IMG/VR virus record: IMGVR_UViG_2822120212_000001
Location: 45,704 to 65,703 of that record
Direction: 5' to 3' (one strand)
DNA: 20,000 nucleotides
From: an uncultured virus (IMG/VR IMGVR_UViG_2822120212_000001)
Taxonomy: Duplodnaviria; Heunggongvirae; Uroviricota; Caudoviricetes
Below the pieces are notes generated by a model. The model was not told the origin of the DNA. It was given only the letters and a program-made list of their open reading frames with translations, and ran no database searches. Made by a program: the position numbers and the translations under genes. The first letter of the stretch is position 1, and every line of letters starts with the position of its first letter. This document shows, in pieces, positions 2 through 16,066 of the stretch.

Positions 2-3000
2 ACACGAAGCCTTATCGATAGGTTATACGCACAAATCATGGGTAGCTTATCAAATAAAGCATCTAAAGAATTACTAGATTTGTTAGATAAGAAACTTCAA
101 GAAAATGTAACAGAAACAGAAGTCATTCGAAAAGAGTCGGAAGCAGCGAAGAAAATTGCTGAACAAGTGGCTGAAAACTTGAAGAATAATACCGTTGATA
201 TTATTGAAGGCGTAAATCCACCAACAGCAAACTTAAAGGATAGAAAGACGTTGTGGCAAGATATTAGTAAAGGGAAACCGGGTATTCTGAAATTGTGGAA
301 GGATGGCAAATGGGATCCTGTTATTCCTGATGTGGAATCCGTTAAGAAAGAAACGTTGGAACAAGTGAGCAAAGATATCGAGACCACAAAAAGCGAATTA
401 AATCAAAAGGTTCAAGAAGCGCAAAAACAAGCAACAGGGCAATTTAATGAAGTGAAAGAAAGCTTACAAGGTGTTAGTCGTATCATTTCTGATGTGCAAA
501 ATAAACAGGGTGAAATTGATAAAAAGGTAACAAAGTTTGAGCAGGATTCTAATGGGTTTAAATTATCTATTGAATCGTTAACTAAAAAAGATACTGATAT
601 CAGCAATAAATTAAATACAGTCGAGCAAACAGCGGAAGGTACGAAAAAGACAATTTCCTCTGTGCAAGAGACGATAAATAGTTTTGAATCAGGTTCAAGA
701 AACTTTCAGAAAAACGGTTCGTTTGCTGATGAAATACATGGATGGGGGCAATATGTAGCTTCTGGTCAACCGACAAATCAAAAACCAACACTTACGGTTA
801 TTGATGATAGTTTATCAGGTACAAAAAAAGCTGCAACAATTAAATTTATTGATAATTGGTCAAATGGTTTCTATAATCCACACACAGTGAAATTAACACC
901 AGGTGAAGAGTATACATGGTTCGTATTTCTTAAAGCTAACAAAGCTGGAAAGATTTCAGTCGGTAGCGAGCAAAGTGGTAGTGGTACTCGCATACTAGAC
1001 GTTACTACTACGGGAGCTTACTATTTTCATACTTTTAAAGCATCTGAAACCGGTGCATCAGCATTTAGGATATATTCGCTTGCAGAATTAAAAAACGTAG
1101 ATTTCTCTGTCACAGTAAAAGATTTAGTTCTTGTGAAAGGTAATATAAAACCTGCTGCATGGTTTCCTGCACCAGAAGATCAAGTTGCTCTACCAGATTT
1201 CAAAAAAGTAACAACTGAAATTACGGAGCAAGCTGGAAAGATTAGTGAGAAGTTAACAAGTGTAGAAAAGAAATTTGATGAGCAAGAAATAGGAGTGCGT
1301 AATTTAATATCAGACACGAAATATTGGGAAACAACACAAGTAGCTTCAAATTCAGCGTATGGAATATTTAAATATGATTTAAATCCATTGTTTAGTACAT
1401 TAGTTGAGCAAACTGTTACCTTCAGTTTCGAAGTGAAAATTATCACGAATGATAACACTGAGGGAAGGGTTCAATTTTATGGTGCTAATGGTTCTCCAAA
1501 ATATACTTTTGCTCAAAAAGTTTTTACAGGCATAAATAAAGATTTTCAGAGGGTTACTTACACTACTAAAATTCAGGAGATTCCTAGTAACGCTGGACAA
1601 GCAAGAATAGAGTTTTGGGGAATAGATGCTAAAACAACAAAAATCATTATTCAAAACTTTAAACTTGAAAAGGGGAACAAAGCCACTGGATGGACACCTG
1701 CACCAGAAGATCAAGTAACAAATGATGAATTCACAAAAAAAACAACCGAGATTGAAAAAAGTGTGATTGGAATCAAAGAAACAGTAACAAAAGTAGACAA
1801 TAATCAAAGTGGATTTGATAAGCGTGTAACAGCAGTAGAGAAAACCGCTGAAGGTATTTCTCAAAACGTTACCAAGTTACAAGAAACACAAACGACACAA
1901 GGTAAACAGATTACTGAAGCACAATCTACAATTAAACAACATTCTGATGCGCTGAATTTAGCTGTAAAAATGAAAGATGTTGAAGATTACGTTGGAGGAA
2001 TTGGTAACCAAACGGTTTTACGCAATGTTTTGTGGAAAAACGACACGAAATATTGGCAATTAACTTCAAACGCAGCAAGAGATACACAAGTAACTTATAA
2101 GGGGTGCAATTCACTTAGTGTTATCACTACAGGTAATGCGAGTAATTTGTATAAAGGGGCATCACACGATTATATAAACGCTGGGCCTGGATGGAATTAT
2201 GTTTTCTCTGCTTACTTTTATACAGATAATAAAGCTAGTATAGATGCCGGAGCTGCTATCGAACTTCAGTGTTACGATGTAAACAATAAAATGATTAAAA
2301 ATTACTTACAAGAAATAACTATTTCACAAGGTACATGGATTCGTACACATGTGGCAGGGCTATTAGTCGAAGGCACAAAGAAAGTTAAAGTGCTGTTTTG
2401 GGTTCGTAAAAATGGTCGTCTATGGATGGCGCAACCTATGCTACAAATTGGTGAAAAACCATCATCATTTATGGAAAATCCAGCTGATATTGCTGGTACG
2501 GATGAATTAATCGAAGAAGTGGGAAAGAAAGTAGCTACACTAGATTACAATCAGAAAACAACTGAACTAGAGCGTCTTATTTCTGCCAATGCGCAGGGGA
2601 TTAGTCTTGCTGCAGTAAAAAACGAAGTATATACAAAACAACAGGCTGACGGAAAATATGCGGATAAAGCGTATGTAGAAAAACAAGCAGGACGTATTGA
2701 CGTAACTGAAAAAGCGATTACTAGTACCGTCCAAAAAGGCGATATTATCTCGGCTATTAACCAGACGGCAGAACAGATTCAAATTGATGTTGCGAAGTTG
2801 AAAATCAACGCTGATACCATTGTAAAATGGCTCACTGCAACAGGTATTAATGCAGATGTAATTAAAATCGAAAATGGGAAAGTTACGATCGATAAGAATG
2901 GTATTACAGCAAAAATGGCTGACTTCTTTTTTGAAGATGAGCGCGGGCAGAAATTTTCAGTAACACCAAGAACGAATCTCATTCCAGATCATGACTTTTC

Positions 3001-3967
3001 ACACATTTCTTTTACTACTGTTAATAATAATTTTTTGAAGATCGAATACAGTCCTACATGGACAATTATGTCTAGTCCATATATTGAGAAACCAGTGGTT
3101 AATAATTATGAGCCAATGGTTAATCCGATGCGGATAGATTTAGGAAACTGGATTCGATTTACATTATTTGAAGGGGTAAAACCAGGTAAGAAATACACAT
3201 TGTCGGCTCATTTCAGAGCAACTACCAATGATAATCGTGTAAACATTACAAACAAGCCAATCATGAGAGCGGTATTCGGTAAATATAACGGTGACACTCC
3301 CGTGGAGCTTGGACGAGCATCAAAAACTTACGATGCACCAAGCATTCAAACTGGAAAAATAGTAAGATACGCTTTAACCTTCACTGTTCCGAGCAACTAT
3401 GTAGAAGGAAATGGGTATGTTTATATCGATTTATTTGGCGAGGGGCTCTTAAATAATATGCAAGCAATTGCTGTATCAGGTGTTCAGTTGGTGGAAGGTG
3501 ACGTTCCTTCCGTTTATAACTGGGATACAACACATGGACAACTCGTAAACGGAACACTGCCTTTTTCTACAATTGCACTTGGTACAAAAGATAATGTTAT
3601 TTACCACAATCATGTGAACAAATGGAACTATATGAATGCGCCACTTGAAATCATAAGTAATGGCGAAATGATGGCACTCGTTGGAAGCGATCGTGCAGGA
3701 CTCAGTTTTTATCCCCGTGGCGGTGGAGAACGTAGAAGTTACATCGGTCACATTTACAACAATGAAAATAGATTTCGGATTGAATCAAAAGATCCTGTTG
3801 CAACGACACAATCAATTGAATGTAATGGGATTAACGTATGTGGTGGATACTTTGGTGCTAATGCAGGTTCTATTCATTATACAAATGGTAGCTTAGGTTT
3901 AGGGTGGTATTTCCATGATGGCCGATGGAATTATGTTGATTTCACAAATATGACTTCTAGAACATAG
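2..3967 (+). CDS. Phage tail / minor structural (host-recognition) protein, 5'-truncated by the window edge
   Basis: Frame open from base 2 (TRSLIDRLYAQI before the ATG at 38). Coiled-coil spacers alternate with carbohydrate-binding-like modules (RN...KGN.....W.PAPEDQV); IISAINQTAEQIQIDVAKLKINA motif typical of siphophage tail proteins; lies just upstream of lysis genes. Confidence 0.88.
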   Translation, partial: TRSLIDRLYAQIMGSLSNKASKELLDLLDKKLQENVTETEVIRKESEAAKKIAEQVAENLKNNTVDIIEGVNPPTANLKDRKTLWQDISKGKPGILKLWKDGKWDPVIPDVESVKKETLEQVSKDIETTKSELNQKVQEAQKQATGQFNEVKESLQGVSRIISDVQNKQGEIDKKVTKFEQDSNGFKLSIESLTKKDTDISNKLNTVEQTAEGTKKTISSVQETINSFESGSRNFQKNGSFADEIHGWGQYVASGQPTNQKPTLTVIDDSLSGTKKAATIKFIDNWSNGFYNPHTVKLTPGEEYTWFVFLKANKAGKISVGSEQSGSGTRILDVTTTGAYYFHTFKASETGASAFRIYSLAELKNVDFSVTVKDLVLVKGNIKPAAWFPAPEDQVALPDFKKVTTEITEQAGKISEKLTSVEKKFDEQEIGVRNLISDTKYWETTQVASNSAYGIFKYDLNPLFSTLVEQTVTFSFEVKIITNDNTEGRVQFYGANGSPKYTFAQKVFTGINKDFQRVTYTTKIQEIPSNAGQARIEFWGIDAKTTKIIIQNFKLEKGNKATGWTPAPEDQVTNDEFTKKTTEIEKSVIGIKETVTKVDNNQSGFDKRVTAVEKTAEGISQNVTKLQETQTTQGKQITEAQSTIKQHSDALNLAVKMKDVEDYVGGIGNQTVLRNVLWKNDTKYWQLTSNAARDTQVTYKGCNSLSVITTGNASNLYKGASHDYINAGPGWNYVFSAYFYTDNKASIDAGAAIELQCYDVNNKMIKNYLQEITISQGTWIRTHVAGLLVEGTKKVKVLFWVRKNGRLWMAQPMLQIGEKPSSFMENPADIAGTDELIEEVGKKVATLDYNQKTTELERLISANAQGISLAAVKNEVYTKQQADGKYADKAYVEKQAGRIDVTEKAITSTVQKGDIISAINQTAEQIQIDVAKLKINADTIVKWLTATGINADVIKIENGKVTIDKNGITAKMADFFFEDERGQKFSVTPRTNLIPDHDFSHISFTTVNNNFLKIEYSPTWTIMSSPYIEKPVVNNYEPMVNPMRIDLGNWIRFTLFEGVKPGKKYTLSAHFRATTNDNRVNITNKPIMRAVFGKYNGDTPVELGRASKTYDAPSIQTGKIVRYALTFTVPSNYVEGNGYVYIDLFGEGLLNNMQAIAVSGVQLVEGDVPSVYNWDTTHGQLVNGTLPFSTIALGTKDNVIYHNHVNKWNYMNAPLEIISNGEMMALVGSDRAGLSFYPRGGGERRSYIGHIYNNENRFRIESKDPVATTQSIECNGINVCGGYFGANAGSIHYTNGSLGLGWYFHDGRWNYVDFTNMTSRT

Positions 3968-9964: not shown

Positions 9965-9990
9965 TAAGAAGAGTTTTATTCGCGGGAATC

Positions 9991-10146
9991 GTATCCGTTG
10001 TAGCGTTATGCGGAGGATTGTTCATTATGGTTGGTAGCCAGGAACGGGGATTCTCGCTAATAAGTCGTGCGGGGATTGGTTATATAGTGGTGCAAATGAT
10101 TCCGTTGTTTATGAGAGTGCTTGTTGAGATCGCTAAGGCTATTTAG
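9991..10146 (+). pseudogene. C-terminal remnant of a TrbC/VirB2 pilin-like membrane protein (not in ORF track)
   Basis: Frame reads VSVVALCGGLFIMVGSQERGFSLISRAGIGYIVVQMIPLFMRVLVEIAKAI-stop; in-frame TAA at 9955 and no RBS/start before this segment. Confidence 0.65.
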
Positions 10147-10169
10147 TCCTACTTAATGTAGGACTTTTT
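10145..10169 (+). terminator. Intrinsic terminator
   Basis: AGTCCTAC TTAAT GTAGGACT TTTT. Confidence 0.8.
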
Positions 10170-10332
10170 CATATGATAATAACCATCTATCGTTATTATC
10201 AGACAACATATCTTAACTCAACATTCGCAATAAATAGTTTTATGTTTCTAAAATTGTAATATATTTACATTTGTGAAAATCGAAAGTATGATGAAGGTGC
10301 AAGCTATAAAACTATTAAAGGGGGATTTTTTT

Positions 10333-12156: not shown

Positions 12157-12531
12157 TTAAATCTCTGTTAATAGCTTGAATTTCCTTTTCTGTTCAGGTG
12201 TTAGCTCATTTTCTACATAGCGATCTATAAGTAAATCGATGATCTCATAAGCAAATTTTGTGTTTGTAAGTTTCATTAATACTTCTAGTTCTTCTTTTGA
12301 TTGATTAGAAATTTTAATGCTACCTTGTTGATTTTTAAATTTCTTTTTTGATTCAATTTTTTCGTTTCTTTTTTCTTTTCGAGTTACTTGTTTTTCTTCA
12401 GTCTTAGGTTGAGAAGGCGTAGCTGGAACCTCGTTATTTTCCACTACAGCTTGTCCTTGCTCTGGTACATAAGGCTCAGTAGGTTCAAAGTTACTTTTCT
12501 TTCTACCTAACAAACCAGGAGTTCTCGCCAT
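12157..12531 (-). CDS. Type Ib partition centromere-binding adaptor (ParB/ParG-like)
   Basis: Directly downstream of parA; likely ATG 12531 (MARTPGLLGRKK); disordered N-terminus and ribbon-helix-helix-like C-terminus. Confidence 0.7.
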   Translation of the reverse strand: MARTPGLLGRKKSNFEPTEPYVPEQGQAVVENNEVPATPSQPKTEEKQVTRKEKRNEKIESKKKFKNQQGSIKISNQSKEELEVLMKLTNTKFAYEIIDLLIDRYVENELTPEQKRKFKLLTEI

Positions 12532-12532
12532 T

Positions 12533-13354
12533 TTACACACCAACCTTCATTTTTTCAAACATATCAATACGAGATAGCAATTCATCACTAATCGTTTCGT
12601 ATAGTTCAATTACATTCATATCATGTCTATCTTTTTCAGTAATACCATTCACATCAAATCGTTTAATACGTTCCATTTGAGGGACGATGTTTTTAAATAG
12701 GTTTTCTTCACCGAAAATTTCACGAGCATTTTCCATGATATATTCGTCAACCTTACCGTTGTTTTTTAATAGGACAGGAAGAACACCAACTACTTCAATA
12801 TCAAGATCATATTGCTCTTTTAGCTTAATAAGTTCATTAACATAATTCTCAGCACCAGTTAGAGAACGCTCTTGAGTTTGCAAAGCAATTAGAACATAAT
12901 CAGAAGCTACAACGGCGTTCTTTGTAACTTCTAGTGACATTGGAGGAACATCGATAAATATGTAGTCGTATTTATGCTTTATCTTTTCAAGTAATCCTTT
13001 AAAGTAATGATCTTCTTCAGCTTCCGAAGAACAATTTTTATAAAGGAATTTTGCGAAATCTTGAAAATCAACGTAAGAAGGAAGTAAATGTAAGTTCTCC
13101 ATAATTTCCACTTCTAAGCCGTCTAGGTTCCCCTCTTGTATTCCCTTCATTAATGTTTTTTCTACTGTAACAATTTCATCAGGGTTAAGAATGGATTTTG
13201 TTAACATTAAAGACTTTGTTGCGTTACTTTGTGGATCAAGGTCAACAAGTAATGTACGCTTGCCCTTTTTAGCAAATTCATAAGAGTTCAATACAGCATT
13301 TGTGGTTTTACCGACTCCACCTTTGTAATTACCTACCGTAATTGTAATAGCCAT
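12533..13354 (-). CDS. parA: ParA/Soj-family partition ATPase (no N-terminal HTH, type Ib)
   Basis: NYKGGVGKTT deviant Walker A, LVDLDPQSNAT, YIFIDVPP; RBS GGAG before ATG 13354. Confidence 0.95.
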   Translation of the reverse strand: MAITITVGNYKGGVGKTTNAVLNSYEFAKKGKRTLLVDLDPQSNATKSLMLTKSILNPDEIVTVEKTLMKGIQEGNLDGLEVEIMENLHLLPSYVDFQDFAKFLYKNCSSEAEEDHYFKGLLEKIKHKYDYIFIDVPPMSLEVTKNAVVASDYVLIALQTQERSLTGAENYVNELIKLKEQYDLDIEVVGVLPVLLKNNGKVDEYIMENAREIFGEENLFKNIVPQMERIKRFDVNGITEKDRHDMNVIELYETISDELLSRIDMFEKMKVGV

Positions 13355-13382
13355 TTTTAACACTCCAGTTATATTATTTAAA

Positions 13383-13473
13383 ATTTCCCTATATCCCTTT
13401 ATAGAAATAGGGAAAAATAGAAATAGGGAAATAGGGATATTTCTAACTATAGAAATAGGGATATTTCTATATC
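13383..13473. repeat. parS/operator-like cluster I of AAATAGGG / ATAGAAAT motifs
   Basis: ATAGAAATAGGGAAAAATAGAAATAGGGAAATAGGGATATTTC... upstream of parA. Confidence 0.8.
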
Positions 13474-13640
13474 TTTAAAGAAATTATAACAATGATATTT
13501 GGGTTATGCAATAGAATCATAGAGTTAGTAATTAATAACAAAAACGTTGGTATCAAAAGATTATTTTGATGTATGAAGTAGAGAGAGTTAAGAAACAAAT
13601 ATGTAATTTCGTAGAGATGTTAGTAGAGGCAAAAATAATT

Positions 13641-13724
13641 AAAATAGGGAAATATAGATATAGGGAAAAGGGGAAATATCCCTATATCTATAAGTGGAAA
13701 TAGGGAAATAGGGAAATAGGGATA
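13641..13724. repeat. parS/operator-like cluster II of AAATAGGG motifs
   Basis: AAATAGGGAAATATAGATATAGGGAAAAGGGGAAATATCCCTATATC...GGAAATAGGGAAATAGGGAAATAGGGATAT (8-bp period). Confidence 0.8.
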
Positions 13725-13751
13725 TTATTCAAAAAGTGCGTAAATTCGCTG

Positions 13752-13780
13752 TTTACAAAGGATAAAGCTTGTTGTAACGT
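13752..13780 (+). promoter_or_regulatory. sigmaA-type promoter firing into the ORF-free region
   Basis: TTTACA-N17-TAACGT. Confidence 0.5.
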
Positions 13781-13888
13781 AGTACACAACAAGCACCATT
13801 CTACAAAACAAAACATAATTTGATATTTTACATAAACGAAGATCATGAAGATCGATAGAGCAAAATCAAAACAATTGAATATGAACAG

Positions 13889-14064
13889 AAAACAAAAAGC
13901 CACTCCATTTGCTATCGGCTACCAACCTTTAGCGGAGTGACTCAGTTCTAGTAATTGCTACCAACACTTACTAGAATGAACTGTATTAACCCACAGTGTT
14001 TACGTTTAAGTAGTGTACCATCACTTTCTTAAACAACTATGCCTTTTCACGAGGCTTCTTTGAT
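13889..14064 (-). ncRNA. Putative antisense copy-control RNA (~175 nt, three UGGUA-loop hairpins)
   Basis: Own promoter at 14071-14099; three hairpins; last one followed by TTTTTGTTTT on the minus strand; a stem mismatch on plus is a G-U pair on minus. Confidence 0.65.
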
Positions 14065-14070
14065 ATACCC

Positions 14071-14099
14071 ATTTTATCTATTGTTTGGATAAATATCAA
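14071..14099 (-). promoter_or_regulatory. sigmaA promoter of the antisense RNA
   Basis: Minus strand TTGATA-N17-TAAAAT. Confidence 0.7.
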
Positions 14100-14148
14100 C
14101 TAGTAAATACTAGTTTTGATTATTTTGTAGTCCAAAAGATATATAACG

Positions 14149-14219
14149 GGCATCTCTAAGCCTAGAAGTCTTGTGATGTACAGGCCATTTAGGGAATTAG
14201 AGATGCCTTTTTGTTTTTT
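14149..14219 (+). terminator. Long hairpin with U-tract, possible attenuator
   Basis: GGCATCTCTAA (14149-14159) / TTAGAGATGCC (14197-14207) then TTTTTGTTTTTT. Confidence 0.55.
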
Positions 14220-14224
14220 GTTCG

Positions 14225-14850
14225 CGTGGAATTGCCTGAAACCACGTAAATAAAACTGATAAGCCGTGATTCCGTGCTTCTATATAGAGGGAACGTGTTA
14301 CGGCGTGGCTAGCTGTTGGTCGTGCAGGGGGTACAGAGTATACGCCTACAAAAACAGCACCCCTCATTGGAATCCTGTTCTTCTGGTGAGGGTGGGCGAG
14401 AACTTGCCCAGGGACGATTCTCTAAAAGGTTCGGGTGGTTATCGTTAGCATTACGGTGCTAGGGAGTACATTCAGTTTGTCGTGTAGGGACGATATTACA
14501 AGGACAAGCCATAGTAAAAGGATGTATGCGGTGAAAATCGCTGAGTGAACAGGGTCTATACATACGGATACCTTATAAGTGACCGCATGGCGAAAACAAA
14601 GACGCTTATCCATCTATTTTGACTGATTACTTTTTTTGTAGTCTTTCAAAGTAGGGGATAAATCTGCCTTCCAGCCGTATTCCATAATCGTTCCCACATG
14701 ATAAAAACCCTCAAGACCTTCAGTCAAGCGTAACTGTGAAGAAAGGATGAAAAACATGAGTTTGTTTAACTTTTGGGGGAATGACTTACTAAGATAGAGG
14801 AATAAATAAGGGATTTACTATTTACTTGGTTAAAGGATAAGGGGACGGAT
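14225..14850 (+). ncRNA. Putative large structured non-coding RNA / replication-origin region
   Basis: GC-rich island with no RBS-backed ORF; nested long-range pairings, UACG and GAAA tetraloop hairpins, G-U pairs favouring the plus strand. Confidence 0.55.
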
Positions 14851-15124
14851 GATTAAAATATTTCCTATTGCAGAATTTGGTTTTACATATCGGATATAGT
14901 ACGTGAAATTAAACTTATATAATTTTAGTTTGATTGGTATATGGTGATATTCTAGCAGTTGATGAAAAAGCACGTTGAGAAGTGATGAAGTAAACAGAAA
15001 AAATATTGTTAGAAGATGTAGTGGTTAACCTCAGTAAACAAAAATTAACTTTTATTGTATATTTTGAAAATAGATATTAATTAAGGTAATCTTAATTTAA
15101 ACTAATAAGGGGAGGGATATCATT

Positions 15125-16066
15125 GTGAAAGTATTTAAATTAACTACAGAAAGTCATGCTCTTTTAGATTTGAATGAACAGAGCTGGGAAACTACTATTG
15201 CTTATTATGAGAAGGAAACTCATAAGAGAGCGCCCTATTATTGTGATCTAAAAAAGAAAACCAGATATTTTGCTGTTTGTCCTGGTTGTAATAATCCGGT
15301 TCAATTAGTAAATTTGTATGTTAATAAGAAATTACCAGGCAACGAAAAGAAGCAATCCCCACATGCTAAACATCAACCGCATTCAGTTATTGGAATAGCA
15401 ACCTATTATCAAGAAAAGTACGATACCTGTGAATTGAGACAGAGAACACCCTTCAGTGATACTGAGAAAAGAGCTGGAACGGAAGTACCAAATGAAATAT
15501 TGCAGCTCATACAACGATATCCAGACATTTTATATAAACATATACGAAAAATAATAGGTATCAATTTTTCTAGACGCGTATTTGAGCGCATGATTGATAA
15601 TTTTCTTCGTGCAAATGGACATTGTTATAAGCGTATTAATAAATTTAATTTGCCGTATGCTTTTCTATATATGCAAAAAAGTACAAGAATTATTAATCAA
15701 CATATTACAGAAGGTCATGCTTATCAAAAAGAAATAATTGATTGTATACAAAATAGTAAATATTTTACTGTATCTGATAATAAAATTACACCTATTAACC
15801 CGAAGGTTGATGGATTTGTAGAAATTGATTTTTACTTAACAAAACATAAAATAACACCAATTAAAAATATGATTACTCTCTGTATTACTGAATCTAAGGG
15901 AGGGGAAGTTGATAGTTTATTAGAAAAGGAATTTCCAGTAAATGAATCTGATTATATAAATGATATCAACGAGGCGATGGACAATGGGGATAATGAAATG
16001 GATAGTAATAAAGCTAGATCTCAATTGAGAGAGATGGTACTCAATTGCATTGAAAAAAATAAGTGA
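15125..16066 (+). CDS. Hypothetical protein with N-terminal CxxC...H...C metal-binding motif
   Basis: RBS AAGGGGAGGG, GTG start; FAVCPGCNNPVQL, PHAKH, TCEL; low GC. Confidence 0.8.
   Translation: MKVFKLTTESHALLDLNEQSWETTIAYYEKETHKRAPYYCDLKKKTRYFAVCPGCNNPVQLVNLYVNKKLPGNEKKQSPHAKHQPHSVIGIATYYQEKYDTCELRQRTPFSDTEKRAGTEVPNEILQLIQRYPDILYKHIRKIIGINFSRRVFERMIDNFLRANGHCYKRINKFNLPYAFLYMQKSTRIINQHITEGHAYQKEIIDCIQNSKYFTVSDNKITPINPKVDGFVEIDFYLTKHKITPIKNMITLCITESKGGEVDSLLEKEFPVNESDYINDINEAMDNGDNEMDSNKARSQLREMVLNCIEKNK

What the first reader, a model, noticed from the sequence alone, without database searches (positions are those of the whole stretch)
13889..14099. Three hairpins with TACCA loops mimic ColE1 RNAI/RNAII
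Seen: hairpin 1 (13898-13942) and hairpin 2 (13946-13976) both expose GCTACCAAC (13918-13926, 13957-13965); hairpin 3 (GTTTAAG 14004-14010 / CTTAAAC 14028-14034) exposes GTACCAT. Hairpin 1 is preceded by AAAACAAAAAG, making it a minus-strand terminator, and TTGATA-N17-TAAAAT points at it. Known: ColE1 RNAII loops read GCTACCAG, GCTACCAAC and GATACCAA after an A-rich run, giving UUGG U-turn loops in RNAI. Inference: a ~175-nt antisense copy-number/incompatibility RNA, convergent with or distantly related to RNAI.
Basis: partly seen in the sequence, partly recalled or inferred. Interest (0 to 1): 0.8.

Follow-up and report, generated by a model that had tools for sequence, protein, structure and literature searches.

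The report
Antisense RNA in Rep-less plasmid origin
A conserved small antisense RNA gene made of several hairpins sits inside the protein-free replication region that Bacillus cereus-group phage-plasmids share with the classic ori1030 cloning-vector origin, and it probably sets plasmid copy number.

Summary
Window 13884-14068 encodes, on the minus strand, a ~175-180-nt RNA. It has five stem-loops (14041-14055, 14004-14034, 13980-13997, 13947-13975, 13899-13941), its own promoter (TTGATA-N17-TAAAAT, 14099-14071) and a hairpin plus U-run end.

- **Promoter:** kept in 64 of 64 distinct homologues.
- **Structure:** 98.1% of pair cells form pairs, and 11 pairs change on both sides.
- **Strand:** G·U pairs favour the minus strand.

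The window is a B. cereus-group phage-plasmid. The cassette lies next to parAB in a 1.7-kb unannotated gap. A homologue lies in the 2.64-kb Bacillus insert of a bla/erm/lacZ shuttle-vector-like plasmid, 99.6% identical to Bt407 BTB_15p. That places it in an ori1030/pHT1030-type replicon with no Rep gene.

Downstream on the plus strand come a long hairpin with a U-run and a GC-rich, G-skewed, covarying structured RNA (14226-14660).

My best reading is a countertranscript that controls a plus-strand origin or pre-primer RNA, analogous to ColE1. It is not an Rfam RNAI member, and relatedness is unlikely.

Still open: strand-specific expression, the sense promoter and the mode of action (attenuation or refolding).

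The parts
13884..14068 (-). Gene of the ~175-180-nt countertranscript. Predicted start is near 14064 and the end lies in the U-run 13884-13898.
   Evidence: Covariance model R1 scores 195.3 bits here. Fold. 71 of 71 homologous loci match at E <= 1e-20.
14071..14099 (-). Promoter of the countertranscript: -35 TTGATA (14099-14094), a 17-nt spacer, -10 TAAAAT (14076-14071).
   Evidence: 10 of 12 consensus matches. In 64 of 64 distinct homologues the -35 is TTGA(TA/AT/AA), the spacer is 17 nt (61) or 16 nt (3), and the -10 is TAAAAT (60) or TACAAT (4).
14041..14055 (-). 5' hairpin hpA (GCCU...AGGC), preceded by a single-stranded tail of about 9 nt.
   Evidence: 4 pairs, 100% paired, never vary in A5. 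It is lengthened to 8-9 bp in the BTB-type relatives.
14004..14034 (-). Hairpin 3. The loop is AUGGUA in the window. Among 60 distinct homologues it is GUGGUA (31), AUGGUA (12), UUGGUG (10) or another sequence (7).
   Evidence: 6 of its 11 pairs change on both sides (for example AGUG/CACU to GAGG/CCUC or GACG/CGUC).
13980..13997 (-). Short hairpin hpX (ACUGU...ACAGU) with the most variable loop.
   Evidence: closing pair AU 42, CG 11. Loop diversity 0.342.
13947..13975 (-). Hairpin 2. The loop is UUGGUAG in the window. Among homologues it is GUGGUA (38), UUGGUAG (11), UUGGUUG (8) or absent (3).
13899..13941 (-). Hairpin 1, the terminator stem-loop of the countertranscript. The loop is UUGGUAG. 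It is followed by CUUUUUGUUUUCUGUU (13898-13884).
   Evidence: In 32 of 32 sequence variants the minus-strand fold (-17.9 to -25.9 kcal/mol) is more stable than the plus-strand fold (-9.4 to -20.0). U·G pairs are fixed in its outer helix: 57 of 60 and 55 of 60.
14100..14113 (+). Invariant palindrome or small plus-strand hairpin CTAGTAAATACTAG, abutting the -35 box.
   Evidence: inner pair UA 45, UG 18, CG 1. The wobble intermediate pairs only on the plus strand.
14148..14225 (+). Long plus-strand hairpin (stem GGGCATCTCTAA / TTAGAGATGCC, invariant apex CCTAGAAGTCTTGT..AT.TACAGG) plus a U-run (14209-14222). It is terminator- or attenuator-like.
   Evidence: Folds. The apex is invariant in 64 of 64 sequences, a circular result because it was the search pattern. 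The stems covary in distant members. U·G pairs are fixed on the plus strand.
14226..14660 (+). GC-rich, G-skewed structured plus-strand RNA domain (module W), the candidate origin or pre-primer RNA. DNA conservation runs on to about 14860-14910.
   Evidence: GC 0.45-0.52 against about 0.30 around it. MFE -178.7 (z -4.69) on plus against -126.7 on minus. Consensus fold -131.9 against -62.8, with compensatory pairs such as 14372-14381, 14483-85/14498-500 and 14470-14523. GGG occurs 10 times and CCC twice.
13752..13780 (+). Candidate sense promoter TTTACA-N17-TAACGT. It is weak; the predicted start is about 13787.
   Evidence: Both hexamers are present in the W-type homologues printed. An RNA-library contig of a relative ends at 13788. 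This is inference only.
12157..13363 (-). parA (12533-13363) and a small partner gene (12157-12543), the neighbouring partition module.
   Evidence: Pfam AAA_31, CbiA and ParA hits for the first; a weak DUF5388 hit for the second.

Best explanation
The three hairpins belong to a five-hairpin, roughly 175-180-nt RNA transcribed from the minus strand. Its predicted start is near 14064, and it ends at hairpin 1 plus a U-run near 13885-13898. The gene lies in a ~1.1-kb protein-free cassette next to parAB. That cassette is the plasmid-state replicon of this B. cereus-group phage-plasmid and is related to the Rep-less ori1030/pHT1030 origin.

The RNA is a constitutively made countertranscript. Through its loops it pairs with the complementary 5' part of a long plus-strand RNA. 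That RNA must run on through the hairpin plus U-run at 14148-14225 into the G-rich structured domain (14226-14660) to activate or prime replication. Binding of the countertranscript stops this, either by favouring termination at 14209-14225 or by refolding the downstream RNA. The result is control of copy number and incompatibility.

Shown:
- The gene, its promoter and terminator, and strand-specific conserved structure.
- Homology of the cassette to one inside a shuttle-vector insert that carries no Rep gene.
- A structured plus-strand downstream RNA.

Inferred:
- That transcripts exist on both strands.
- That the target is the plus-strand RNA.
- The effect on replication.
- The mode of action.
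For: **A small RNA gene**
- The promoter is kept in 64 of 64 distinct homologues.
- Hairpin plus U-run end.
- 98.1% of 2665 pair cells are paired, against 31.7-47.1% for slid partners. 11 pairs and 41 cells change on both sides, against 2.5 +/- 1.0 pairs in shuffles, 0 of 500. The seed alignment, not fitted to a model, gives 95.0% and 8 pairs.
- 121 G·U cells against 15 A·C cells, so 98.1% are paired on the minus strand and 94.1% on the plus strand.
- Hairpin 1 is more stable on the minus strand in 32 of 32 variants.

**Replicon context**
- Plasmid CP041081.1 carries TEM bla, ErmB, a lacZ fragment and RNAI. Its only Bacillus-like DNA found is 2640 bp that are 99.6% identical to Bt407 BTB_15p 1273-3914.
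- That insert differs by a 4-nt AGCT insertion typical of a filled-in restriction site. It holds no Rep-like ORF.
- The cassette homologue (R1 112.3 bits) lies in this insert.
- ori1030 is used as the sole Bacillus origin of vectors in B. subtilis and other Bacillus species (passages of PMC5678133 and PMC10101014).
- The cassette occurs in 79-91 Bacillus plasmids of 10-260 kb, with no annotated feature under the match in any listed row.
- Among them is pALH1. Records matching pLVP1401 and pBWB404 by size and strain are also among them. Zheng et al. 2013 list all three as having 'no reported minireplicon' (PMC4219350 Table 1).

**An autonomous module**
- The genes downstream differ. The window has a 313-aa ORF with no family, pALH1 has a 458-aa MmcB-like protein, and BLASTP between them gives E 0.18.

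**A plus-strand structured RNA follows**. The small hairpin 14100-14113 and the apex of 14148-14208 use wobble pairs that pair only on the plus strand. This implies plus-strand transcription across the antisense promoter.

**RNA libraries**
- 13 of the 24 listed runs are recorded as RNA and hold part of 13700-14700.
- A soil metatranscriptome contig covers 13788-14910.

**Co-resident plasmids.** pBC07-2 and pBC07-3 of strain BC07 carry cassettes with the same stems but different loops in 3 of the 4 loops compared (hairpins 1, 2, 3 and hpX).
Against: - No strand-resolved transcript data. All 4 runs laid were contigs, X6 gave nothing, and DNA carry-over cannot be excluded.
- No plus-strand promoter is conserved at one place. 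The best W-type candidate has a weak -10, TAACGT.
- No conserved anti-terminator pairing was found. For the window, 64 of 200 shuffled arms pair as well; for pALH1, 126 of 200. Only some relatives do better: 3, 5 and 8 of 200.
- Loops are no more variable than linkers (0.191 against 0.172; stems 0.051). So there is no signal of diversifying selection on the loops.
- The window's downstream module W has no detectable sequence homology to the ori1030-type module B (nhmmer). Replicon function of the window's version is therefore inferred from the shared cassette, from position and from like composition.
- Relatives of this phage-plasmid also encode phage-type replication initiators and helicase loaders (passages of PMC8026635). 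These might serve the plasmid state instead.
- BTB_15p carries a weak RepA_N-like ORF just upstream of the cassette (E 9e-4, below the Pfam cut-off), although it lies outside the vector insert.
- The claim that the minimal pHT1030 replicon is about 1 kb without an ORF is recalled from Lereclus & Arantes 1992. I saw only its reference entry.
Confidence: 0.6

Rival explanations
1. The minus-strand RNA is real but regulates something other than replication. Candidates are the neighbouring parAB operon, the lysis-lysogeny decision of the phage-plasmid, or host or phage mRNAs in trans.
For: - The gene lies about 520 nt from parA, between centromere-like repeats and the rest of the gap.
- A second minus-strand terminator-like hairpin at 13794-13767 stands between it and parA.
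- A third GCTACCAAC copy, a possible trans target, lies at 10030-10038.
- The loop core UGG is kept across three hairpins, which a cis-antisense mechanism does not require.
Against: - The cassette travels with the origin-type modules W or B, not with parAB. Small plasmids and the vector insert carry it without parA.
- The third motif copy lies inside a small ORF with a good ribosome-binding site, and one extra copy is not significant.
- The RNA ends at its own terminator before reaching parA.
Confidence: 0.15
2. The hairpins act only as the structured 5' domain of the plus-strand RNA, or as DNA cruciforms or single-strand initiation signals at the origin. The minus-strand promoter-like site is not used.
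For: - The plus strand of 13880-14100 also folds well (z -4.97).
- 94.1% of pair cells can still pair on the plus strand.
- Promoter-like sites in the region are no more frequent than in shuffles: 9 found against 8.3 +/- 3.0.
Against: - Fixed U·G pairs in hairpin 1 pair only on the minus strand (57 of 60 and 55 of 60).
- Hairpin 1 is more stable on the minus strand in 32 of 32 variants.
- The -35 box, spacer and -10 box are kept in 64 of 64 homologues, including a TAAAAT to TACAAT change that keeps a good -10.
- The U-run follows hairpin 1 on the minus strand only.
Confidence: 0.1
3. The element is a true evolutionary relative of ColE1/pMB1 RNAI-RNAII, sharing descent with it.
For: - The UUGGUAG loop is identical to stem-loop 2 of RNAI, and CUGGUAG occurs in stem-loop 3.
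- It is a multi-hairpin antisense RNA in a replicon without a Rep gene.
Against: - No Rfam RNAI match in the window at gathering score or at E <= 10, while the positive control scores 73.7 bits.
- It has five hairpins rather than three.
- Loops drift within the family to GGUCGAAA, GUGCGAA and others.
- Matches are confined to the B. cereus group: 91 of 91 plasmid records are Bacillus, and 19 of 105 genomes of the family have a hit.
Confidence: 0.03
4. The sense-antisense pair is a type I toxin-antitoxin or similar addiction module.
For: - The arrangement has overlapping sense and antisense transcripts with strong hairpins.
- Plasmid stability loci are common next to origins.
Against: - No conserved small ORF. 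The 31-codon frame starting at 13845 lies partly in a stretch that many homologues delete. The 19-codon frame starting at 13881 has no Shine-Dalgarno sequence and is broken by indels in homologues.
- No hydrophobic peptide is encoded.
Confidence: 0.03

Closest known systems
ori1030, the replication region of B. thuringiensis plasmid pHT1030 (basis of the pHT304/pHT315/pHT370, pGP380 and pBS0E vectors)
   Same: The control cassette is homologous: countertranscript gene, its promoter, the CTAG...CTAG palindrome and the long hairpin with an invariant apex and U-run. Evidence is 70-85% identity by blastn and 112.3 bits with R1, against Bt407 BTB_15p and the vector-like plasmid CP041081.1. Both lie in noncoding gaps of 1 kb or more with a GC-richer, G-skewed plus-strand domain downstream.
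   Different: - BTB_15p lacks hairpin 2.
- The window's downstream module W shows no sequence homology to BTB_15p's module B. Other phage-plasmids (L042, L055) carry module B at 72% over 900 bp.
- That pHT1030 needs no plasmid protein is recalled from Lereclus & Arantes 1992. I saw only the reference entry.
ColE1/pMB1 RNAI-RNAII (class B theta replication)
   Same: - A replicon without a Rep gene.
- A short multi-stem-loop antisense RNA with 6-7-nt loops and a short 5' tail, complementary to the 5' part of a long structured sense RNA.
- The loop heptamer UUGGUAG is shared with stem-loop 2 of RNAI.
   Different: - Not a member of Rfam RF00106.
- Five hairpins; the host is Bacillota.
- A strong hairpin plus U-run sits between the target and the downstream domain.
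- No rom gene was seen.
- Dependence on RNase H and Pol I is unknown.
Antisense-RNA transcriptional attenuation in Gram-positive plasmids (pT181 RNAI/II, pIP501 RNAIII, pAMbeta1)
   Same: A Gram-positive host, a multi-hairpin countertranscript with its own terminator, and a terminator-like hairpin on the sense strand directly downstream of the target.
   Different: - Those systems attenuate a rep mRNA. Here no rep gene follows, and the downstream genes are unrelated between relatives.
- No conserved pre-emptor pairing was found.
- No Rfam countertranscript family matched at E <= 10.
pLS20 oriV (class E theta replicon of B. subtilis)
   Same: A noncoding replicon of about 1.1 kb without a typical replication gene, in Bacillus, with mechanism not yet characterised (passages of PMC9743546).
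   Different: No B. subtilis plasmid appeared among the listed rows of the 91 plasmid records matching the cassette by blastn. No direct comparison with pLS20 was made.

Membership tests
cis-encoded plasmid countertranscript (antisense RNA gene) | Own promoter on the strand opposite to the target | tested here: met
   TTGATA-N17-TAAAAT at 14099-14071, kept in 64 of 64 distinct homologues. This is a consensus match plus conservation, not a mapped transcription start.
cis-encoded plasmid countertranscript (antisense RNA gene) | Intrinsic terminator and stem-loop structure conserved on that strand | tested here: met
   98.1% of cells paired, 11 pairs changed on both sides, 121 G·U cells against 15 A·C cells, and a U-run after hairpin 1. 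The simple terminator scan did not flag it.
cis-encoded plasmid countertranscript (antisense RNA gene) | A discrete transcript of the predicted size and strand | tested here: inconclusive
Contigs from RNA libraries cover the region, but contigs carry no strand or end information.
cis-encoded plasmid countertranscript (antisense RNA gene) | Negative effect on copy number, and incompatibility in trans | not testable with these tools
   Only a natural hint: two co-resident plasmids of strain BC07 differ in 3 of the 4 loops compared.
ori1030/pHT1030-type replicon | Homologous control cassette | tested here: met
   (112.3 bits on L075 and L076).
ori1030/pHT1030-type replicon | Homologous downstream (origin-proximal) module | tested here: not met
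   nhmmer with the W-module profile finds nothing in BTB_15p or the vector. Composition and strand bias are alike. L042 and L055 do carry the BTB-type module.
ori1030/pHT1030-type replicon | Autonomous replication without a plasmid-encoded initiator | not testable with these tools
   For the homologue: the vector insert has no Rep-like ORF, and ori1030 vectors replicate in B. subtilis. For the window's own version this is inference.
ColE1 RNAI (Rfam RF00106) | Covariance-model score at or above the gathering threshold | tested here: not met
   No hit in the window at gathering score or at E <= 10 in 13300-15300. The positive control scores 73.7 bits in L075.
ColE1-type (class B) replication | RNAII pre-primer forms an R-loop, is cut by RNase H and extended by Pol I | not testable with these tools
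   Only compatible features: a G-rich structured plus-strand RNA, with GGG 10 times against CCC twice.
Antisense-driven transcriptional attenuation (pT181/pIP501 type) | Terminator on the sense RNA just downstream of the antisense target | tested here: met
   Hairpin 14148-14208 plus U-run 14209-14222. This is structural only.
Antisense-driven transcriptional attenuation (pT181/pIP501 type) | Mutually exclusive pre-emptor pairing that includes the target region | tested here: inconclusive
   Best upstream partner of the 5' arm: window -14.8 kcal/mol (64 of 200 shuffles as good), pALH1 126 of 200, some relatives 3-8 of 200. The partner site is not conserved.
Antisense-driven transcriptional attenuation (pT181/pIP501 type) | A rep gene as the regulated downstream cistron | tested here: not met
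   The downstream ORFs have no Rep family and are unrelated between relatives.

The most novel reading that the evidence does not exclude
The cassette and the G-rich RNA together form a ColE1-like, initiator-free, RNA-primed replicon native to Bacillota. A plus-strand pre-primer RNA must read through an antisense-controlled hairpin and U-run gate (14148-14225). Its G-cluster-rich domain (14226-14660) then forms an R-loop for host RNase H, Pol I and the primosome. The control cassette is a portable module joined to at least two unrelated origin RNAs (W and B). This would explain how ori1030 vectors replicate without a Rep protein. It would also name the missing replicon of pALH1/pBClin29-type phage-plasmids. 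A bolder side reading is that the kept 5'-UGGN-3' loop cores pair with the NCCA ends of uncharged tRNAs, tying copy number to amino-acid supply.
Probability: 0.3. Interest if true: 0.85.

Novelty: new variant of a known kind. Interest (0 to 1): 0.62.

Why it matters
- **A mechanism for a widely used origin.** ori1030 is a common Bacillus vector origin. As I recall, its Rep-independence was reported in 1992, and I found no later account of how it works in the library. A defined countertranscript, a gate hairpin and a structured plus-strand RNA turn that question into direct experiments. They also give handles for tuning vector copy number and compatibility.
- **A candidate replicon for many phage-plasmids.** The same cassette marks dozens of B. 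cereus-group phage-plasmids and larger plasmids. A 2013 survey lists several of them as having no known minireplicon. A 2021 survey of plasmid prophages describes only their par and phage replication genes.
- **A new host range for the ColE1 principle.** If the mechanism is RNA-primed, this would be a Gram-positive counterpart of class B theta replication. The classification read exemplifies that class only by pColE1 and pColE1-like plasmids.

Tried and rejected
- **Rfam.** No family matched at gathering score in the whole window. Only chance-level hits appeared at E <= 10 in 13300-15300, for example an LhrC-like hit of 26 bits against a threshold of 110.
- **Phage collection.** One partial match only: phage C30-2, 95 nt at 78%.
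- **The genome search by genus from the window.** I used pattern scans and a handle reached through a fetched locus instead.
- **Earlier findings of this scan.** Nothing by place, by sequence or by words.
- **Pre-emptor or anti-terminator search.** Not significant and not conserved.
- **A-run and U-run pairing.** In the full-length fold, the A-run at 13883-13899 pairs with the U-run at 14204-14222. I judged this a by-product of two similar terminator tails. The weak R1 hits on the plus strand next door (E 6e-4 to 5e-3) have the same cause.
- **Homology of downstream modules W and B.** None by nhmmer.
- **Hypervariable loops as a sign of diversifying selection.** Not seen.
- **Small ORFs as a toxin.** Rejected because they are not conserved.
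- **A conserved sense promoter directly upstream of hairpin 1.** TTTACA or TCTACA with AACAAT appears in many relatives, but the window and pALH1 types carry a 20-nt insertion there.
- **RNA runs.**
  - X6 gave no contig.
  - X2's 3598-nt contig at depth 616 starts in the repeat region and says nothing about transcript ends.
  - X10 covers only 14354-14675.
  - Absence of cover elsewhere is not evidence.
- **Lereclus & Arantes 1992.** Not held in the library.
Full report
**What the window is.** The window is the last 20 kb (45704-65703) of a 65.7-kb virus record. It encodes phage lysis genes (amidase, XhlA), FtsK and Replic_Relax proteins, and a ParA with a small partner gene. DNA from 13400-14300 matches 79 plasmid records, all Bacillus and mostly B. 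cereus-group plasmids of 50-70 kb. Among them are pALH1 and a 52,166-bp plasmid of B. cereus G9241. No annotated feature lies under the match in any of the 30 listed rows. Published surveys treat pALH1-like plasmids as plasmid prophages (passages of PMC8026635). The finding lies in a 1.7-kb gap without long ORFs (13364-15124), between parA and an unrelated 313-aa ORF.

**The observation.** The stretch folds better than shuffles on both strands: z -3.55 on minus and -4.97 on plus. There are in fact five hairpins on the minus-strand RNA. From 5' to 3' they are hpA 14041-14055, hairpin 3 14004-14034, hpX 13980-13997, hairpin 2 13947-13975 and hairpin 1 13899-13941. A U-run follows hairpin 1. The simple terminator scan flagged neither hairpin 1 nor the plus-strand hairpin at 14148-14208, so their terminator-like nature rests on the folds and the U-runs.

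**Comparative evidence.**
- A 21-specified-base pattern from the invariant apex at 14161-14184 retrieved 10 loci from species genomes and 62 from viral contigs. Together with the window, pALH1 and BTB_15p these gave 71 distinct 1-kb regions.
- The hairpin segment is the least conserved part (mostly 81-94% identical to the window). The next segment is mostly 84-96% and the downstream domain mostly 91-98%.
- Folded one by one, every variant of each hairpin keeps its stem-loop. Hairpin 1 is more stable on the minus strand in 32 of 32 variants. Hairpin 2 is missing in 3 sequences.
- On a seed alignment of 26 diverse sequences with a structure I wrote by hand, 95.0% of cells pair (31.7-48.1% when slid) and 8 pairs change on both sides.
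- A covariance model built from that seed found one full-length hit at E <= 1e-20 in each of 71 sources.
- On that model-fitted alignment (60 distinct rows), 98.1% of 2665 cells pair. 11 pairs and 41 cells change on both sides, against 2.5 +/- 1.0 pairs in shuffles (0 of 500). Slid controls give 31.7-47.1%. Because the alignment was fitted to the structure, it leans towards it.
- 121 cells are G·U on the minus strand. Only 15 are A·C, which would be G·U on the plus strand. Two U·G pairs are nearly fixed in the outer helix of hairpin 1.
- The promoter is kept in 64 of 64 distinct sequences. This includes a TAAAAT to TACAAT change that still gives a good -10 box.

Together this makes a minus-strand small RNA gene the best reading.

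**Loops.**
- Hairpin 1: UUGGUAG (31), UUGGCG (21), UUGGUG (5), other (3).
- Hairpin 2: GUGGUA (38), UUGGUAG (11), UUGGUUG (8), absent (3).
- Hairpin 3: GUGGUA (31), AUGGUA (12), UUGGUG (10), other (7).

A UGG core is kept, but loops as a class vary no more than linkers (0.191 against 0.172; stems 0.051). Four distant members found in 105 genomes of the family (19 of 105 had a hit) keep the architecture with compensatory stem changes. Two of the four carry other loops in hairpin 1 (GGUCGAAA and an AUGU-type loop), and hairpin-3 loops also drift.

The RNAI of a pMB1-type origin, read from a control plasmid, has UUGGUAG and CUGGUAG in stem-loops 2 and 3. The Rfam RNAI model, however, does not match the window. 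I read the likeness as convergence or chance, not descent.

**Where it sits: a Rep-less replicon.**
- The 351-nt cassette also matches small plasmids at 74.5%. One is Bt407 BTB_15p, where it lies in a 1.3-kb noncoding gap.
- Another is CP041081.1 (9926 bp). It carries TEM bla, ErmB with its leader, a lacZ fragment and RNAI, so it looks like a laboratory shuttle vector. I recall the pHT304 series as fitting this; no call names it.
- Its only match to BTB_15p is one block of 2640 bp, 99.6% identical to BTB_15p 1273-3914. The block differs by a 4-nt AGCT insertion typical of a filled-in restriction site and by six single-base homopolymer deletions. None of these lies in the cassette.
- That insert contains the cassette, about 750 bp more of noncoding DNA, a 58-aa ORF, a skipping-rope RNA and a PBECR-fold gene, but no Rep-like ORF.
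- Vector papers call ori1030 the Bacillus origin of such plasmids, including in B. subtilis (passages).
- I recall that Lereclus & Arantes (1992) delimited a roughly 1-kb ORF-free minimal replicon. I saw only the citation, and the paper is not held.
- Two 50-kb viral contigs (L042, L055) match BTB_15p over 1404-2305 at 72%. This is the size expected of such a minimal replicon.
- Zheng et al. 2013 list pALH1, pLVP1401 and pBWB404 among plasmids with 'no reported minireplicon' (Table 1). pALH1, and records matching the other two by size and strain label, carry the cassette.

**What follows it on the plus strand.**
- Next to the -35 box lies an invariant palindrome (14100-14113). Its inner pair runs UA 45, UG 18, CG 1, and the wobble form pairs only on the plus strand.
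- Then comes a long hairpin (14148-14208) with an invariant apex and a U-run. Its stems covary in distant members and it has fixed plus-strand U·G pairs.
- Then comes a GC-rich island: GC 0.45-0.52 against about 0.30 around it, with positive GC skew.
- That island folds far better on plus (-178.7 kcal/mol, z -4.69) than on minus (-126.7, z -2.71).
- A consensus fold of 67 distinct sequences gives -131.9 on plus against -62.8 on minus. Compensatory pairs include 14372-14381, 14483-85/14498-500, 14470-14523, 14467-14526 and 14528-14541.
- This module W has no detectable sequence homology to the corresponding BTB_15p module B. Module B shares the composition, though: GC 0.42-0.46, GGG 8 times against CCC twice, and a more stable plus strand.
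- One locus (L012) combines a BTB-like cassette half with module W.

So the control cassette is a portable unit joined to at least two origin-type RNAs.

**Expression.** Of the 24 listed runs holding part of 13700-14700, 13 are recorded as RNA; the 24 runs come from 16 studies. I laid four runs, and all were contigs.
- A soil metatranscriptome contig (depth 10.8) covers 13788-14910 and runs on into unlike sequence. Its end at 13788 is one base from the start predicted for the weak TTTACA-N17-TAACGT promoter. That is a hint only.
- A tick metatranscriptome contig covers 14354-14675.
- One transcriptome has a 3.6-kb contig across the region.
- One run gave nothing.

None of this gives strand or transcript ends, and DNA carry-over cannot be excluded.

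**Mechanism.** The topology matches replication-control countertranscripts. A short, stable-looking multi-hairpin RNA is complementary to the 5' part of a long sense RNA that must reach an origin-proximal domain. Two modes fit.
- Attenuation at the hairpin and U-run 14148-14225, as in pT181 or pIP501. I found no conserved pre-emptor pairing.
- Refolding of a pre-primer RNA, as in ColE1. The G-cluster-rich downstream RNA would suit R-loop formation, but that is inference.

The downstream protein genes differ between relatives, which argues against a rep-mRNA leader. Two co-resident plasmids of strain BC07 carry cassettes with the same stems but different loops in hairpin 1, hairpin 3 and hpX (hairpin 2 is the same). 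This fits loop-determined compatibility but does not prove it.

**Verdict.**
- The copy-control antisense RNA reading is the best supported (about 0.6).
- Membership of the RNAI family is rejected.
- The link to ori1030, and to the 'missing' replicon of B. cereus-group phage-plasmids, is the most useful new point.
- In the library I searched I found no paper describing an antisense RNA in ori1030 or pHT1030. The 1992 paper itself could not be read, so this may already be in print there.

Noticed in passing
L075 3068-3179 (= BTB_15p about 2886-2997, opposite strand) and L076 3061-3465: A skipping-rope RNA (RF02924, 65.7 bits against a gathering score of 36.7) lies inside the ori1030-type vector insert. 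It sits directly beside a PBECR3/PBECR2 nuclease-fold gene. This could be an RNA-toxin stability pair, and may correspond to the stability locus I recall being named spbA.
   Followed up: partly
window 9965-10272: A small ORF of 46 codons starts at ATG 10028, with a GGAGG ribosome-binding site. It is followed by a terminator hairpin near 10147-10172. It contains the third GCTACCAAC copy (minus strand, 10030-10038), which is probably chance.
   Followed up: partly
window 13380-13480 and 13640-13725: Arrays of GGGAAATA/AATAGGGA repeats flank the parA promoter region. They are probably the centromere for the ParA and small-partner system rather than iterons of an initiator.
   Followed up: no
window 13767-13794: A 9-bp hairpin (GCTTGTTGT...ACAACAAGC) followed by a T-rich run on the minus strand, flagged as terminator-like. 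It may stop read-through of the countertranscript before parA. It overlaps the weak candidate sense promoter.
   Followed up: partly
window 13883-13899 and 14206-14222: The U-tails of the minus-strand and plus-strand terminator-like hairpins are near-identical, forming an inverted repeat of about 17 of 18 bases that brackets the control region. In a full-length plus-strand RNA fold the two ends pair.
   Followed up: partly
L076 101-1141 (BTB_15p): The 346-aa ORF just upstream of the cassette has weak RepA_N (E 9e-4, 19.5 bits, below the cut-off) and HTH_36 hits. It lies outside the vector insert, so it is not needed for ori1030 function, but it may be a second replicon.
   Followed up: partly
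L089 (G007:C4, a 457-kb contig) and L088: Diverged copies of the countertranscript gene (54.9 and 64.8 bits) lack the long hairpin and the GC-rich module. They sit next to sigma-54, PAP2 and beta-lactamase-family genes. They are possibly remnants of integrated plasmids.
   Followed up: partly
PQ069203.1 547-642 (Bacillus phage C30-2): The only hit in the phage collection. It matches window 14166-14260 (hairpin apex, U-run and the next small hairpin) at 78%.
   Followed up: no
L014 and L022 (one 61,746-bp viral contig); CP003692.1: Two different copies of the module lie on one contig or record. This could be a cointegrate, an assembly join or a two-replicon element.
   Followed up: no
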